The translations under genes were made by a program, and so were the position numbers. Below, one piece after another: positions 11,038 through 41,500 of a stretch of 64,000 nt of DNA. A model generated the notes under the pieces. It was not told where the DNA came from. It saw only the letters and a list, made by a program, of their open reading frames with translations, and searched no databases. Source of the DNA: the human T2T-CHM13v2.0 reference genome, Homo sapiens; NCBI RefSeq assembly GCF_009914755.1, contig NC_060944.1; one strand, 5' to 3'. Position 1 is the stretch's first letter. Every line of letters starts with the position of its first letter.

Positions 11038-12153
11038 AAAAGTGAATCTTTTTTTTTTTGTACTTTAAGTTTTAGGGTACATGTGCACATTGTGCAGGTT
11101 AGTTACATATGTATACATGTGCCATGCTGGTGCGCTGCACCCACTAACTCGTCATCTAGCATTAGGTATATCTCCCAATGCTATACCTCCCCCCTCCCCC
11201 CACCCCACCACAGTCCCCAGAGTGTGATATTCCCCTTCCTGTGTCCATGTGATCTCAGTGTTCAATTCCCACCTATGAGTGAGAATATGCAGTGTTTGGT
11301 TTTTTGTTCTTGCGATAGTTTACTGAGAATGATGATTTCCAATTTCATCCATGTCCCTACAAAGGACATGAACTCATCATTTTTTATGGCTGCATAGTAT
11401 TCCATGGTGTATATGTGCCACATTTTCTTAATCCAGTCTATCATTGTTGGACATTTGGGTTGGTTCCAAGTCTTTGCTATTGTGAATAATGCCGCAATAA
11501 ACATACGTGTGCATGTGTCTTTATAGCAGCATGATTTATAGTCCTTTGGGTATATACCCAGTAATGGGATGGCTGGGTCAAATGGTATTTCTAGTTCTAG
11601 ATCCCTGAGGAATGGCCACACTGACTTCCACAATGGTTGAACTAGTTTACAGTCCCACCAACAGTGTAAAAGTGTTCCTATTTCTCCACATCCTCTCCAG
11701 CACCTGTTGTTTCCTGACTTTTTAATGATTGCCATTCTAACTGGTGTGAAGGCATGGGCAAGGACTTCATGTCCAAAACACCAAAAGCAATGGCAACAAA
11801 AGACAAAATTGACAAATGGGATTTAATTAAACTAAAGAGCTTCTGCACAGCAAAAGAAACTACCATCAGAGTGAACAGGCAACCTACAAAATGGGAGAAA
11901 ATTTTCACAACCTACTCATCTGACAAAGGGCTAATATCCAGAATCTACAAAGAACTCAAACAAATTTACAAGAAAAAAACAAACAACCCCATCAAAAAGT
12001 GGGCGAAGGACATGAACAGACACTTCTCAAAAGAAGACATTTATGCAGCCAAAAAACACATGAAAAAATGCTCATCATCACTGGCCGTCAGAGAAATGCA
12101 AATCAAAACCACAATGAGATACCATCTCACACCAGTTAGAAAAGTGAATCTTT
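11038..12153 (-). mobile_element. Young L1 (L1PA2-like), twin-primed 5' inversion (copy A)
   Basis: 3' segment on the minus strand ~11052-11749 (ORF2 C-terminus 11262-11735 plus 3' UTR); inverted segment on the plus strand 11750-12140; 14-bp TSD aaaagtgaatcttt at 11038-11051 and 12140-12153. Confidence 0.97.
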
Positions 12154-14319
12154 CAACCCATGGACATCTCTCTCCATTTATTTAGAATTTAGTTTCTCTC
12201 AGAAATGTGTTATAGTTTTCATACATCGTCCTTTATTTTTGTAGTTTCAATTCATAGGTCCTTTACATTTTTGTCATATTTATTCCCAAGTACTTCATGT
12301 TTGTGATACTGTTGTAAATTGTATTTTTTTAATTGAGATTTCCAATTGTCTGTGGCAAATTGACTTTTTATATTAATCTCAAATCTGAAGTACACTAAAT
12401 TTATTTACAAGTTCAAGATGCTTTTTTCTGGATTCTACATAAATAATCATGTCTTCTGCAAAGAAAATTTTGCTTCTTCATTTCCAATCTGGAAGTTTTT
12501 TCTTTCTTTGTCTTGCCTTATTCTATTGGCTAGAAGCTCTAATACAATGTGGAATAAAAGTGGTGGGAGTACACATCTTTGCTTTGTTTCTGATCTTAGG
12601 GAAAAGCATTTGATCTTTCAACATTAAGTATGATGTTAGCTGTAGGTTTTTGTACTGTCCTTTATTAGGCTGAGGAAGTTTCCTTCCATTAATACTATGA
12701 GTTTGCTGAGAGGTTAAATCAAAAATGAATGTTGAATATTTTTAATGCGTTTTGCTGCATCTATTGAGATGCTCACATTTTATTTTTTATTTTATAATAT
12801 GGTGAATTACATCAATTAAGTTTGAGTATTGAAGCAACGTTGCATTTCTGGGAAAAATCCCAATTAATCATGATGTGTGTGTGTATGTGTGTGTATGCAC
12901 ATACATGTGTATATATGTGTATATTAGTTAAATTTCACTTGTCAAAATCTTGTTTATAATTTTTATTTGTGTTCATGAAATATTTTTATCTATAATTTTA
13001 TATTCTTGTAATATTTTACTTAGGTTTGGATATAGGCTAATATTGACCTCATCTAACGAGTTGGGACATAGTTCTCCCTATTCAGTTTTCTACAAGAGTT
13101 TGTATAAAATTGTCATCATTACCCCCTTAAGTGTTTGGTAGAATTCTTCAACAAAACCATCTGGACCTAAAGTTTTCTTTGATGGAACGTTTTTAAACAA
13201 CAAATTAAATTCCTTTAATAGATATAGGGATACTCTGGTTATATATTTCTTCATGAGTAATCTTTGGTAGTTGATGTCTTTCATGGAATATTGACCATTT
13301 TATCTAAGTTGTTGAGCTTATTTACATAAAGTTGTTTATAATATTCCCTTATTAACCTTTTAAAATTGTATTATCTACATTAATGTCACCTCTCACATCT
13401 GATATTGGTAATTTGTGTCTTCTATCTTTATTTTCTAGTCAGCCTCACTAGACACATATCAATTTTTTAATCTTCTCAAAAAGACACCTTTTAGTTTTAT
13501 TTTTTCTATTTATTTTCTGCTTTCTATTTTATTGATTTCTGTTCTAATGTTTTTTCTACTTATCTTGAGTTTAATTTGGGTTTTTTCCCTAGTTTCTTAA
13601 CCTGGAAGCTGTGATCTTTGATTCAAGACCTTTCTTCTCTTCTAATATCAGCATTTAGTACTATAAAATTCACCGTAAGTATTATTTAGCAGTATATTGT
13701 AAATTCAATGTGTTGCGTTTTATTTTATTTAGTTCAAAATGCTTTCTAGTTTTCATTTGTTTTCTTCTTTGACCCATGGGTTGTCTAAAAGTGTGTTACC
13801 TTGTTTGGAGATTTTCCAGAAATCTGTTATTGATTTATAAATTACTTTCATATTTTTGCATGATTTAAATCTTTTGTAAATTTATTAAATCTTGCCTTGT
13901 AGTCCAGAATACAGTCTATCTTGATAAATGTTCAATGTATATTCTACCTCCACTCAGTGGAGCATTTTATAAAACTTAATTAGGTCAAGTGGGTTGATAG
14001 TGTTGTTCAGATATTTATATTCTTATTGATTTTCTGTCTACTTAGTCTACAAATTACTGAGAAATAGTTATTTAATATATTTGACTATAGTTGCAGATGT
14101 GTACATTTTTAATAATGTTATCAGTTATTGCCCAGGTATTTTGAAGTTCTGTTATTAAGGGCATAAACCCTCAGGACTGTTATATTCTCTTGAAGAATTG
14201 ACTCCATTATGACTATGAAATTACAACCTTTCTGTCTAGTAATATTCTTTGACCTGAGATTTACCTTTCTTCATTAATATAACTGTTCTAGCTTTCTTTC
14301 GACTGGTGTTAGTATAGTA

Positions 14320-38509: not shown

Positions 38510-41500
38510 ACAATGAGAACACATGGACATAGGAAGGGGAACATCACACTCTGGGGACTGTTGTGGGGTGGGGGGAGGGGGGAGGGATAGCACTGGGAGA
38601 TATACCTAATGCTGGATGACGAGTTAGTGGGTGCAGCTCACCAGCATGGCACATGTATACACATGTAACTAACCTGCACATTGTGCACATGTACCCTAAA
38701 ACTTAAAGTATAATAATAATAAATTAATTAATTTAAAAAAAAGAAACTAGAAAAAAGAAAAAAGAAAAAAAAAAAAAGAAATTACCATAGAAGCCAAAGT
38801 TGAGAGATACCCCAAGGCCAACCACCCATAGCCACGTACCACGTAAGCAAAACTTAGTTATCCTGATTTCCCTGAGATGCTATCTCAAATCACAATGAAA
38901 CACAACATGTAAGCTTTACATTCTTGTCAATATGATTCAGTGAAATTAAGCCAAACAGCTATAGATAAATCAGCTTAAACAACTCTGCTTGCCTTAACAA
39001 GAACATTAATGCATAACAGCCAACCATAAAAAAGGCCAAAATACTTCTTGATGCTTTATAAGCTATGCTGTAACTGCTATAAGGTGAGCTTCTTACTGTC
39101 TTCATTTGAAGTTTCCTGGTTCAAGATCGGCCAACTGTTCCTTTGTAAACATAATATACTTTAAATTTTTAAAAATTTGATCTGATATAATTATTTTTCT
39201 GAATTTGACTTGATTTTATTTTTGAAACTCCCAACACTGCTCTTCTGGGAGGAAAAAAAAAATCTAATGAGAAAACTGGAGAATAAGAAAAGTCAGATCA
39301 GAAGTTGATTTTTCTCTCTTTCGCTTTCTCTCTAATGGCTCAATTCCCATGTTTACCTCATGTTTTGGTTTGCAAAGTAGATTGTTGCTTCTAAAAAGTC
39401 TTAGGATGCCTCCAACTTTTGGCCAATGGGGTGGCTTTGACTTTTGCAAAGAATTTTTATCCCCTTCTTATTCATTTCCTGCATTTAATTTTTCTTGAAT
39501 GCGGAAATATCGGAGAATTTTGCAATTGCATAACTGTCCTGGATTATTTTAGGAATCCTTCTCTTCGCTACTAAAATTTTACTCTCATTTACTCTCATTT
39601 TATTTTCAGAAAGAGCGTTGCCTTTCAACAAAATTACAAAGTAAAATGATTTTTGCTAAACAATGCATCTCGTTTAACAAAAGATAACTCCCCTCCTTCA
39701 AAAATAGCTGCAACATGAATATCACCAATTTTCATCCAAAATAAAATTATTTTCTCATGATAATCGTCATTCAGGAAGAAAAGGTAGGTGCAGCTATGTG
39801 GCCTTGAGCAACTTTTCTCATTTTTCTCAGTTTTCTCATCTATAAAATGGGGACAATGCTAGATGTTAAGCGTATTATAGGCAGTCTTTCGAGATGTCCC
39901 TTTTCTCTGACAAGTAGCCACCCACAGGGCACCTTCTTCTATCAGACTGGGCACCTTTTCAAATCAGATTGTCTCAAGAGTTTGGAACTGGCATTCAGAC
40001 ATAACCAGTCATATTGCTGAGTGTGACTCAAAATAAGGTGATGTAAACTTGCAAACTTCAGGGACAGCCATCCTGTGACATGTTTGTAAAGAAGGCATGA
40101 AAGCTAGCTGGGAGAGATAAAGGAATGAGATGGGCATGCAGAGAAATCAGGGCATGGGGACAGAGTAACTACCAGGGTTCCTGATGGCAGTCCACCTCCT
40201 AGCTCTGGTTCTGAGCTGTGACTGCATTCCAACATTTAACTCGCTGAAGACATTACTATAGCCTCATTTAAAAAAAAAGTAAAACTCCTCAAGCTTTTGT
40301 TTTTTTTTTTTTTTTTTTGGTTTTTTTTTTTTGCTAAATACATCACAAATTTGTTTTTATTCCTTACAACCAGAAGTGTCTTCACTAAAACACAAAAGGA
40401 AAAATGCCAAAGATATTTCTTTATCCACACTGGCCCTTCTAAGAGAACTCTGCTACCAGCCAGAGCTCACCATAGCCCCTCCCATGCAGGAATTCCAATT
40501 AAAGTAAAACAAGGTCTTTACAGTCACATGATCATCAATATGCATAAAAGTGACACCAAACCAACATCAAATGCCCAATTACCCATATGTCTTGCTCAGG
40601 TAACAGTCTTCATATAGGCAAAAGTTCTTTGGTAAATTATCTCGTTTAGAGAAATTAAAGCCAACTTTGAACACAGATGATTTCTCATCCTCGTAACAGC
40701 CACTCGCAGAATAATTGAAAGCGTTTCTCATCATCTAACATACCAGGTCAACATGGCACCATCGATCCATTTTATTTAGCCGGGAAGTTCAGCTCGGCAC
40801 AAGCCCTGATTTGTGCTTTCATGTGACTGGTAAGTAGTTCCTCACTCAAGAGAGGCCTCAGGATGAGACCTCTGCCAATTTGCTCTTTGAAAAGAGTCAG
40901 GCCTGGGTGTTCACTCTTACAACAGCCTAAAATCCAGATGTGCACATAACAATGGGAAGTGGGATAAGGTCAGGCCCATTTTGTGGCTGGCTGAGGGGAA
41001 GGGGTACATCTAGGGTATATCATGACCCTGAGACGTCGTAGTGTGGGGCCTTTAAGACTAGTTCAGAGAACTTCATGAATGATTTCCGGGAGTGTGGAGG
41101 AGGCCAGCATGTAGCTGACTGATGAATCATTCGCCACCGCACAGATGTTAACACAAAGAGTTCTCTTCATTCTCTGCACTCATGGTGTTCTGCTGTGTGC
41201 GTCCAAGTCGACCCATTTAACAATAAACTAGCTCTTAGTTTAGAGGGTAGAAATTCATACTCACTCTGCAGCTGAAGGGCTGGGCAGATTTAAGAAGGTC
41301 TAATTTTGATGCAAATCAACCTATTTTGCTGTATTTCTCGCTGAGTTTTTTTCTCTGGGCCCCTGTTACCAAGGGAAAGTTGGTTCAATGCTGACTCCCT
41401 CTCACCTCCCAAACATTGGCAATGTTTGAGCCTGGTTGAGCCTAGGGCTCAGAATATGAGATTAAATTTGTGAGACAAGCTTCTTTCAATCTAGTCAGCA

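What the first reader, a model, noticed from the sequence alone, without database searches (positions are those of the whole stretch)
11259..38512. Two independent inverted L1s share a perfectly homogenised 491-bp tract (gene-conversion footprint)
Seen, by manual base-by-base comparison: the reverse complement of 11259-11749 equals 38022-38512 with 0 mismatches. The adjacent 3' UTRs (11061-11258 vs 38513-38710) differ at 11 of ~200 sites. The segment of copy A lying in direct orientation to B (11750-12140 vs ~37645-38035) differs at 11 of ~390 sites. The two copies have different TSDs, so they are separate insertions. Both carry the same departures from the young-L1 consensus as I recall it: tggccattcc for tggcgattcc (WRF to WPF, a transversion) and cactgcat for caccgcat (HRI to HCI). 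At 2.8% background divergence about 14 differences are expected, so zero has Poisson probability ~1e-6. Inference: recent non-allelic gene conversion restricted to the antiparallel region, as expected if the chromatid folds back and pairs the inverted repeats.
Basis: partly seen in the sequence, partly recalled or inferred. Interest (0 to 1): 0.85.

Follow-up and report, generated by a model that had tools for sequence, protein, structure and literature searches.

The report
Gene conversion between two inverted L1s
Two separately inserted L1 retrotransposon fragments lying 26 kb apart in opposite orientation share a 491-base stretch that is letter-for-letter identical while their flanks differ by 3-5%, which is best explained by one copy having overwritten the other through a well-known DNA-repair process (non-allelic gene conversion).

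Summary
The reverse complement of 11259-11749 equals 38022-38512 (0/491), against 11/198 differences in the 3'UTR and 11/377 in the other flank. Both copies are 5'-inverted L1 3' fragments with different target-site duplications, so they are independent insertions, and TSD orientation excludes an inversion by crossover.

Forty-two unlinked L1 copies, chosen without regard to the tract, show that the tract is not mutation-cold: private-change density is 1.47% there versus 1.38% in the flank. From the flanks' private changes about 10 differences are expected and none is seen (P about 4e-5; longest-gap test 2.9e-5). None of 861 unlinked pairs approaches this except true duplicates.

Best reading: recent non-allelic gene conversion, probably A to B.

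The WPF change occurs in 179 genomic copies and HCI is a recurrent CpG transition.

This is a known kind of event, so interest is modest. Confirmation needs other assemblies and ape orthologues, which are not available here.

In passing, carriers of rare L1 variants cluster strongly along chromosomes. This is unexplained.

The parts
11038..11051 (.). Copy A left target-site duplication AAAAGTGAATCTTT
   Evidence: Read directly; identical 14-mer at 12140-12153.
11049..11059 (-). Copy A poly(A) tail (seen as a T-run; its first 2-3 T overlap the TSD)
11060..11258 (-). Copy A 3'UTR; 11 differences from B's UTR over 11061-11258
   Evidence: A-private states at B-register 38513 and 38586.
11259..11749 (-). 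Identical tract in copy A (last ~163 codons of ORF2 plus stop); ends at A's internal inversion junction 11749/11750
   Evidence: 0/491 mismatches to 38022-38512.
11750..12139 (+). Copy A 5'-inverted segment (twin priming); ORF2p residues 989-1117; overlaps the direct segment by 13-15 L1 bases
   Evidence: E 6e-79 to LINE-1 ORF2p; 11/377 differences from B 37645-38021.
12140..12153 (.). Copy A right target-site duplication
35814..35829 (.). Copy B left target-site duplication GAAATTACCATAGAAG
   Evidence: same 16-mer at 38778-38793.
35830..36995 (-). Copy B 5'-inverted segment (ORF2 reverse-transcriptase region, frame-shifted); junction about 36990-37000, not mapped to the base
   Evidence: 36077-36709 (-) matches ORF2p residues 479-686, E 8e-129.
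36996..38021 (+). Copy B direct ORF2 part upstream of the tract; open frame from 37001
   Evidence: 37001-38509 translates without stops and matches ORF2p 774-1275.
38022..38512 (+). Identical tract in copy B; ends at the last base of the ORF2 stop codon. Carries C at 38157 (WPF) and T at 38480 (HCI)
38513..38710 (+). Copy B 3'UTR; B-private states at 38530, 38614, 38638, 38662
38711..38777 (+). Copy B A-rich tail
38778..38793 (.). Copy B right target-site duplication

Best explanation
Copies A (11052-12139, minus strand) and B (35830-38777, plus strand) are two independently inserted, 5'-inverted (twin-primed) L1PA 3' fragments. After both had decayed for millions of years, a break in one copy was repaired using the other as template, 26 kb away in inverted orientation. 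This non-allelic, non-crossover gene conversion overwrote up to 491 bp. The tract is at least 324 bp if bounded by the two shared uncommon bases 38157 and 38480. On one side the tract stops where continuous homology stops (A's own inversion junction) and on the other between 38480 and 38513. No crossover accompanied it, because both TSD pairs are still in direct orientation. The donor was more probably A, the cleaner and younger-looking copy, and the acceptor B. Shown: identity, independent origin, non-cold tract, absence of inversion. Inferred: the repair mechanism, the direction, and the timing. For timing, zero differences bound the event to less than about 45% of A's residence time, roughly the last 3-6 Myr under recalled mutation rates.
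For:: 0/491 against 11/198 and 11/377 in the flanks.

different TSDs, each pair direct.

private states (present in at most 5% of copies not selected on that segment) are B 4/377 + 4/198 and A 2/377 + 2/198 in the flanks, but 0/491 in the tract for both. The expectation is 10.2 differences, so P(0) is about 4e-5.

longest-gap P = 2.9e-5.

in 42 unlinked copies chosen by UTR similarity only, private density is 1.47% (304/20634) in the tract and 1.38% (166/12054) in the ORF2 flank, so the tract is not intrinsically slow. Each of these copies has 2-16 private changes in the tract.

the same 42 copies differ from the A/B tract by 4-23 (median 9).

in 861 unlinked pairs the longest identical run within 38022-38710 has median 108, 99th percentile 227 and maximum 387, against 491 here.

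A and B share C at 38157, present in 1 of 42 unbiased copies, although their flank haplotypes belong to different L1 lineages.

Direction: the tract carries only 1 rare state. P(<=1) is 0.15 at A's flank rate and 0.009 at B's.

Precedent: conversion among neighbouring Alus (passages in PMC8230782 and PMC6598467) and L1-L1 conversion (passages in PMC1920257).
Against: No outgroup or second human assembly could be consulted, so the pre-conversion state, the direction and even the reality of the tract outside this assembly are untested.

The tract is unusually clean for any decayed donor: 1 rare state where 3.4 (A) or 6.8 (B) are expected.

The shared C at 38157 is less diagnostic than it looks. 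179 genomic copies carry it, on several backgrounds including B-like ones (7-8 of 27), and its carriers cluster regionally for unknown reasons. Another carrier lies 1.29 Mb away on the same chromosome.

There is no lineage-diagnostic site inside the tract, so phylogenetic incongruence rests on that one base.

Across a scan of many windows, a P of about 3e-5 per pair could yield an occasional chance case.
Confidence: 0.78

Rival explanations
1. Chance: both copies simply escaped mutation in these 491 bp, and the shared C and T are parallel or lineage states.
For: The tract equals the unmutated lineage sequence except at two CpG positions. An unlinked chr4 copy (L003) differs from it by only 1/491. 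C at 38157 exists on B-like backgrounds. T at 38480 is in 21% of unbiased copies. Many windows were scanned.
Against: P(0 differences) is about 4e-5 from the copies' own flank loads. None of the 42 unbiased copies has fewer than 2 private changes in the tract, yet here two neighbours both would. No independent pair among 861 comes close. Co-occurrence of a variant seen in about 2% of copies in both neighbours adds further improbability.
Confidence: 0.07
2. Third-party donor: A and B were each converted (or A was born and B converted) from a third, pristine C-bearing L1 DNA, RNA or cDNA acting in the region. They are identical because both copy that donor, not each other.
For: The tract is almost pristine. 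Carriers of C at 38157 cluster regionally and sit on different L1 backgrounds. A third carrier with both C and T lies 1.29 Mb away.
Against: This needs two events whose right ends fall within about 20 bp of each other (A-private at 38513, B-private at 38530). No copy identical to the tract was found among the 38 other scored hits out of 516 candidates. The chr20 neighbour L021 has 6 other differences in the tract.
Confidence: 0.08
3. Artefact or non-germline event: an assembly or polishing error, or a mitotic conversion private to the sequenced cell line.
For: Only one assembly was examined. Nothing here can exclude a cell-line-private event.
Against: From general knowledge, not tested here: the copies are 1.1 and 2.9 kb long with unique flanks and about 2% overall divergence, which long accurate reads span easily. 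A polishing error would have to alter about 10 separate bases coherently.
Confidence: 0.05
4. Inversion of the 26-kb interval by crossover between the inverted L1s, leaving chimeric copies.
For: An inverted repeat pair of 701 nt at 98% identity is a plausible substrate.
Against: Each copy's two TSDs are intact and in direct orientation. A single crossover would separate and invert them, and it would not make the copies identical.
Confidence: 0.01

Closest known systems
Non-allelic gene conversion between neighbouring Alu elements (Aleshin and Zhi 2010, as described in passages of PMC8230782 and PMC6598467)
   Same: Dispersed retrotransposon copies of independent origin are locally homogenised. 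The rate rises with proximity and identity, and the result is short tracts of shared non-diagnostic variants.
   Different: Here the partners are L1 3' ends, 26 kb apart (beyond the ~10 kb range quoted for Alus) and inverted. The tract (324-491 bp) is longer than a whole Alu.
L1-L1 gene conversion: repair of a break in a LINE from endogenous LINEs (Tremblay et al. 2000, seen only as a citation in PMC1920257), and the 377-bp intrachromosomal conversion proposed at locus NCLI34 (passage in PMC1920257)
   Same: An L1 copy is patched from another L1 on the same chromosome, and the tract size is of the same order.
   Different: Those cases are an induced break in mouse cells or a divergent patch inside an insertion. 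Here the signature is perfect identity inside two otherwise decayed, fixed copies, bounded by a twin-priming junction.
Arm-to-arm gene conversion in large inverted repeats and palindromes, and interlocus conversion in segmental duplications (recalled from general knowledge, no call)
   Same: Intrachromosomal exchange between inverted homologous arms without crossover.
   Different: Those arms are duplicates of one another and tens of kb long. Here the 'arms' are unrelated insertions sharing only 701 bp of transposon homology.
Twin-primed (5'-inverted) L1 insertions (term used in PMC1920257; model recalled)
   Same: Both copies have TSDs, an A-tail and a 5' segment inverted relative to the 3' segment.
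   Different: Nothing differs. This explains the anatomy and the left boundary of the tract, not the identity.

Membership tests
Non-allelic (ectopic) gene-conversion tract | The two sequences are paralogous copies of independent origin, not duplicates of one another | tested here: met
   The TSDs differ and each is intact. Flanks outside the L1s do not align (L001 vs L002).
Non-allelic (ectopic) gene-conversion tract | A contiguous tract whose divergence is significantly below that of the flanking homology | tested here: met
   0/491 against 22/575. Longest-gap P = 2.9e-5. Poisson P is about 4e-5 from private loads. The tract is not mutation-cold in 42 control copies.
Non-allelic (ectopic) gene-conversion tract | Incongruent ancestry: the tract groups the two copies while the flanks place them in different lineages | tested here: inconclusive
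   Flank haplotypes differ (A is TTG..A-type, B is ACT..T-type). Both share the rare C at 38157 (1/42 unbiased). However, no lineage-diagnostic site lies in the tract, and C occurs on both backgrounds elsewhere.
Non-allelic (ectopic) gene-conversion tract | An orthologous locus in an outgroup or another haplotype shows the pre-conversion state | not testable with these tools
   Only the window's own assembly is held. No ape or other human assembly is available.
Non-allelic (ectopic) gene-conversion tract | No reciprocal exchange of flanks (non-crossover) | tested here: met
   Both TSD pairs are direct and correctly paired.
Twin-primed 5'-inverted L1 insertion | TSDs flank the whole structure, with a poly(A) tail at one end | tested here: met
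   for both copies.
Twin-primed 5'-inverted L1 insertion | The 5' segment is inverted and derives from L1 sequence immediately upstream of the 3' segment, with a small overlap or gap at the junction | tested here: met
   A: inverted part = ORF2p 989-1117; the direct part starts at B-register 38022; overlap is 13-15 bases. B: inverted part includes ORF2p 479-686 and the direct part runs from residue 774; the junction was not mapped to the base.
Segmental duplication | Homology extends beyond the repeat into the flanking unique DNA | tested here: not met
   Homology between the two loci is confined to L1 sequence.
NAHR inversion between inverted repeats | Flanking markers (TSDs) are exchanged or inverted between the two copies | tested here: not met

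The most novel reading that the evidence does not exclude
The A/B tract may be one visible instance of a pervasive, cis-acting spread of short L1 segments. Carriers of rare L1 3'-end variants are far more clustered than chance, both locally (3-50 kb) and at megabase scale, and in regions that differ from variant to variant. Carriers within one region often sit on different L1 backgrounds. If this reflects frequent distance-dependent L1-L1 conversion, possibly from privileged pristine donors such as an active element or its RNA or cDNA, then L1 copies are much less independent molecular clocks than assumed. Regional 'epidemics' of L1 variants would also mark recombination-prone chromatin.
Probability: 0.2. 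Interest if true: 0.6.

Novelty: new member of a known kind. Interest (0 to 1): 0.3.

Why it matters
This is a clean, well-bounded example of L1-L1 non-allelic gene conversion across 26 kb between inverted copies. It illustrates three points.

- Divergence-based ages of individual L1 copies can be locally reset.
- Twin-priming junctions can set conversion boundaries.
- Such inverted L1 pairs do engage in homologous repair, and are therefore candidate substrates for inversions.

None of this is new in kind. The incidental clustering of rare L1 variants, if it holds up genome-wide with age-matched and duplication-masked controls, would be the more informative result. It would allow the distance, orientation and regional dependence of ectopic repair in the human germ line to be measured from a single complete genome.

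Tried and rejected
1. Mutation-cold tract. Rejected: private density is 1.47% in the tract versus 1.38% in the ORF2 flank in 42 copies chosen without regard to the tract.

2. 'WPF' as a private shared mutation. Rejected. All 27 tract-seeded copies carry it, but only because the genome search seeds on rare words. There are 179 exact 25-mer matches genome-wide.

3. Direction from diagnostic sites. No site inside the tract separates A-like from B-like lineages, so only the weak 'donor cleanliness' argument remains.

4. Inversion by crossover. Rejected by TSD orientation.

5. Segmental duplication. Rejected.

6. PRDM9-like 13-mer (motif recalled) as initiator. It matches in both 3'UTRs (11189-11201, 38570-38582; 3 matches in the window versus 0.76 expected). 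It lies outside the tract, between differing sites 38562 and 38586, so it gives no support.

7. Regional C>G hypermutation as the cause of clustering of C-38157 carriers. Two results argue against it. The private C>G fraction is 28/205 in carriers versus 49/491 in controls (OR 1.43, p 0.18). The matched variant on the other strand of the same CpG (56 carriers) has 0 on chr2, where C-38157 has 44.

8. Larger duplicated units around C-bearing copies. Downstream flanks of 30 loci share only Alu-like ~80% matches, except one true duplicate pair, L010/L024.

10. Literature searches found no genome-wide study of L1-L1 conversion between neighbours in the held library. This does not show that none exists.
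Full report
**Observation**

The claim is exact. The reverse complement of 11259-11749 equals 38022-38512 with 0 mismatches in 491. On the same diagonal there are 11 mismatches in 38513-38710, and similarity ends abruptly left of 38022. 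The repeat finder reports inverted arms 11049-11749 / 38022-38722 (701 nt, 98%, 26,272 nt apart) and a direct match of 11750-12049 to 37645-37944 at 97%. In alignment, A's inverted part differs from B at 11/377 sites.

**Anatomy**

Copy A (11052-12139) lies on the minus strand.
- It has a T-run (its poly(A) tail) at 11049-11059 and a 3'UTR at 11060-11258.
- The last ~163 ORF2 codons occupy 11259-11749.
- An internal junction lies at 11749/11750. Beyond it, 11750-12139 is L1 sequence on the plus strand, matching ORF2p residues 989-1117 (E 6e-79).
- The two parts overlap by 13-15 L1 bases, and the whole is flanked by AAAAGTGAATCTTT at 11038-11051 and 12140-12153.

Copy B (35830-38777) lies on the plus strand.
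- 37001-38509 translates without a stop and matches ORF2p 774-1275.
- Its 5' part, 35830 to about 36995, is inverted: 36077-36709 on the minus strand matches ORF2p 479-686.
- It is flanked by GAAATTACCATAGAAG at 35814-35829 and 38778-38793.

Both are therefore ordinary 5'-inverted ('twin-primed', a term recalled and also used in PMC1920257) L1 insertions at different target sites, so they are independent insertions. Because each TSD pair is direct and correctly paired, the 26-kb interval has not been inverted by a crossover between the copies.

**Is the tract merely slow-evolving or lineage-conserved?**

The window's own assembly could be searched. I collected three samples.
- T: 27 alignable copies, from the 38 other scored hits (516 candidates) seeded by the tract itself.
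- BU: 20 copies seeded by B's 3'UTR only. I dropped L034, an older element with 57/491 differences, and copies not covering the whole tract.
- AU: 22 copies seeded by A's 3'UTR only.

BU and AU are unbiased with respect to the tract. They give the following results.
- These 42 copies differ from the A/B tract by 4-23 bases, median 9.
- Their density of private states (present in at most 5% of copies) is 304/20634 = 1.47% in the tract and 166/12054 = 1.38% in the upstream ORF2 flank. Every one of them has 2-16 private changes in the tract.

So the tract mutates like its surroundings.

**Expectation for A and B**

Counting states present in at most 5% of copies not selected on the segment concerned:
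- B has 4/377 + 4/198 private changes in the flanks.
- A has 2/377 + 2/198.
- Both have 0/491 in the tract.

About 7 of the 22 flank differences are polymorphisms between L1 lineages, so I did not count them. The expected number of private differences in the tract is 10.2, giving P(0) of about 4e-5. The post-hoc longest-gap test (22 differences, 1066 sites, gap of at least 491) gives 2.9e-5.

Empirically, the 861 unbiased pairs show tract differences of min 2, median 17, max 36. Their longest identical run within 38022-38710 has median 108, 99th percentile 227 and maximum 387. The only near-identical pairs, L032/L045 and (in T) L010/L024, are near-identical in all three segments, and L010/L024 also share flanks at 99.7%. 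They are duplications, unlike A/B.

**The 'shared departures'**

Relative to the solved human ORF2p sequence, both copies read WPF for WRF and HCI for HRI. But T at 38480 is a CpG transition present in 9 of 42 unbiased copies.

C at 38157, a transversion in a CpG, is in 1 of 42 unbiased copies (G 37, A 3, T 1). It is in all 27 T copies, which reflects the tool's seeding on rare words. The exact 25-mer has 179 matches genome-wide. It occurs on several flank haplotypes, including B-like ones (7-8 of 27) and A-like ones (10 of 27).

The variants are therefore not private. The C is still uncommon enough that its presence in both neighbours adds some weight. No unlinked copy among the scored hits carries the exact tract; the best, L003 on chr4, differs by 1.

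**Direction and date**

Inside the tract the A/B sequence departs from the unbiased majority only at 38157 and 38480. A donor should carry its own private changes into the tract. With one rare state observed, P(<=1) is 0.15 at A's flank rate (3.4 expected) and 0.009 at B's (6.8 expected). A-to-B is therefore favoured about 10-17 to 1 on this weak argument. No lineage-diagnostic site lies in the tract.

Zero differences bound post-conversion pairwise divergence to about 0.6% (95%). This is less than about 45% of A's residence time, or roughly 3-6 Myr with recalled mutation rates (an inference).

**Mechanism**

The simplest account is repair of a break in one copy by synthesis-dependent strand annealing or a related non-crossover pathway, using the inverted copy 26 kb away. 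Heteroduplex cannot pass A's inversion junction, which explains the sharp left boundary. The right boundary falls between 38480 and 38513.

Whether pairing was within a folded chromatid, with the sister chromatid or with the homologue cannot be told. A PRDM9-like motif (recalled) occurs in both UTRs but outside the tract, so it gives no support.

**Rivals**

- Chance (about 0.07), for the reasons above.
- A third, pristine donor converting both copies (about 0.08). The cleanliness of the tract and the regional clustering described below argue for it. Against it, it needs two events ending within about 20 bp of each other, and no identical donor was found. L021, 1.29 Mb away, has both C and T but 6 other differences in the tract.
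- An assembly artefact or a cell-line-private event (about 0.05); untestable here.
- Inversion (about 0.01); refuted by the TSDs.

**Known context**

Passages in PMC8230782 and PMC6598467 describe significant conversion among neighbouring Alus, within about 10 kb and inversely related to distance, citing Aleshin and Zhi 2010. PMC1920257 (passages) proposes a 377-bp intrachromosomal L1 conversion. It also cites Tremblay et al. 2000 for repair of a LINE break from endogenous LINEs.

My five literature searches did not turn up a genome-wide analysis of L1-L1 conversion between neighbours in the held library. I read only search listings and the passages named, and no supplements.

The event is therefore a new, tidy member of a known kind.

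**Seen in passing, and unexplained**

Carriers of C-38157 are strikingly clustered.
- Of the first 100 of 179 listed, 7 are on chr1, 44 on chr2 (for example 6 in 40.2-43.0 Mb and 14 in 51.3-57.0 Mb), 4 on chr3, 19 on chr4, 2 on chr5, 18 on chr6 and 6 on chr7.
- There are 15 pairs closer than 50 kb, where about 0.35 are expected under uniformity (expectation computed by hand).

Three comparisons bear on this.
- The CpG-transition version of the same 25-mer (1,149 matches) has 85 on chr1, which is chr1's share, and about 5 such pairs where 1.4 are expected.
- Three carriers within 34 kb on chr2 (L007, L015, L091) are identical over 38018-38226, including a second uncommon base at 38041. They differ by about 3% elsewhere, in flank haplotype, and in non-L1 flanks. 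This is a second conversion-like locus.
- A non-CpG variant (G at 38256) has 13 carriers, including two same-chromosome inverted pairs 2.9 kb and 322 kb apart.

Regional C>G hypermutation (the oocyte process described in 10.1101/2020.01.10.893024, passages read) does not explain it.
- Carriers' private C>G fraction is 28/205 against 49/491 in controls (p 0.18).
- The same-class change on the other strand of the same CpG (56 carriers) has none on chr2 and 14 on chrX. Several of those appear, from recalled knowledge, to lie in duplication-rich regions.

Downstream flanks of 30 C-bearing loci are unrelated except for one duplicate pair. A coherent sub-lineage carrying C (L004, L008, L011, L012, L016, L025, L026, L091) also sits mostly on chr2, chr4 and chr6. 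Insertion bias, conversion from privileged donors, or both therefore remain open.

I could not pursue this further.

Noticed in passing
Genome-wide; pattern from window 38145-38169: The 179 genomic copies carrying C at the 38157 position are strongly clustered. 44 of the first 100 listed are on chr2, with dense runs at chr2:40-43, 51-57 and 153-167 Mb, chr4:12-16 and 150-161 Mb, and chr6:122-137 Mb. There are 15 pairs closer than 50 kb. A CpG-transition control at the same site is spread evenly, and a same-class control clusters elsewhere.
   Followed up: partly
L007, L015, L091 (chr2:155.41-155.44 Mb of the assembly): Three same-orientation L1 3' ends within 34 kb are identical over B-register 38018-38226, including two uncommon bases (38041 G, 38157 C). 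They differ by about 3% elsewhere, have different UTR haplotypes and have unrelated flanks. This is a second conversion-like locus.
   Followed up: partly
L027 / L028 (chr2:66.73 and 66.41 Mb), and chr1:105,257,686 / 105,260,557: G at B-register 38256 has only 13 carriers genome-wide. Four of them form two same-chromosome inverted pairs, 322 kb and 2.9 kb apart.
   Followed up: no
L021 (chr20, 1.29 Mb upstream of the window): A third L1 copy on the same chromosome arm carries both C-38157 and T-38480 on a B-like background. It has 6 other differences in the tract and a truncated or rearranged UTR.
   Followed up: partly
window 37001-38509 (+): Copy B keeps an uninterrupted 502-codon ORF2 frame (residues 774-1275) despite about 1.4% private changes in its flanks. 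Its inverted 5' part is frame-shifted.
   Followed up: no
window 35352-35711: A tandem array of about 33-bp units (8 register-shifted copies, 63-81% alike) lies just upstream of copy B's left TSD.
   Followed up: no
window 9885-10733: An older L1 3' fragment in plus orientation, 67-79% similar to A and B, lies immediately upstream of copy A.
   Followed up: no
window 11189-11201 and 38570-38582: Both L1 3'UTR polypurine tracts match the degenerate 13-mer CCNCCNTNNCCNC (3 matches in the window versus 0.76 expected). Both matches lie outside the identical tract.
   Followed up: yes
L010 / L024 (chr9) and L032 / L045 (chrY / chrX): These pairs are near-identical across the whole L1 fragment, and for L010/L024 in flanks too (99.7%). 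They are true duplications, and they served as positive controls for what duplicates look like.
   Followed up: yes
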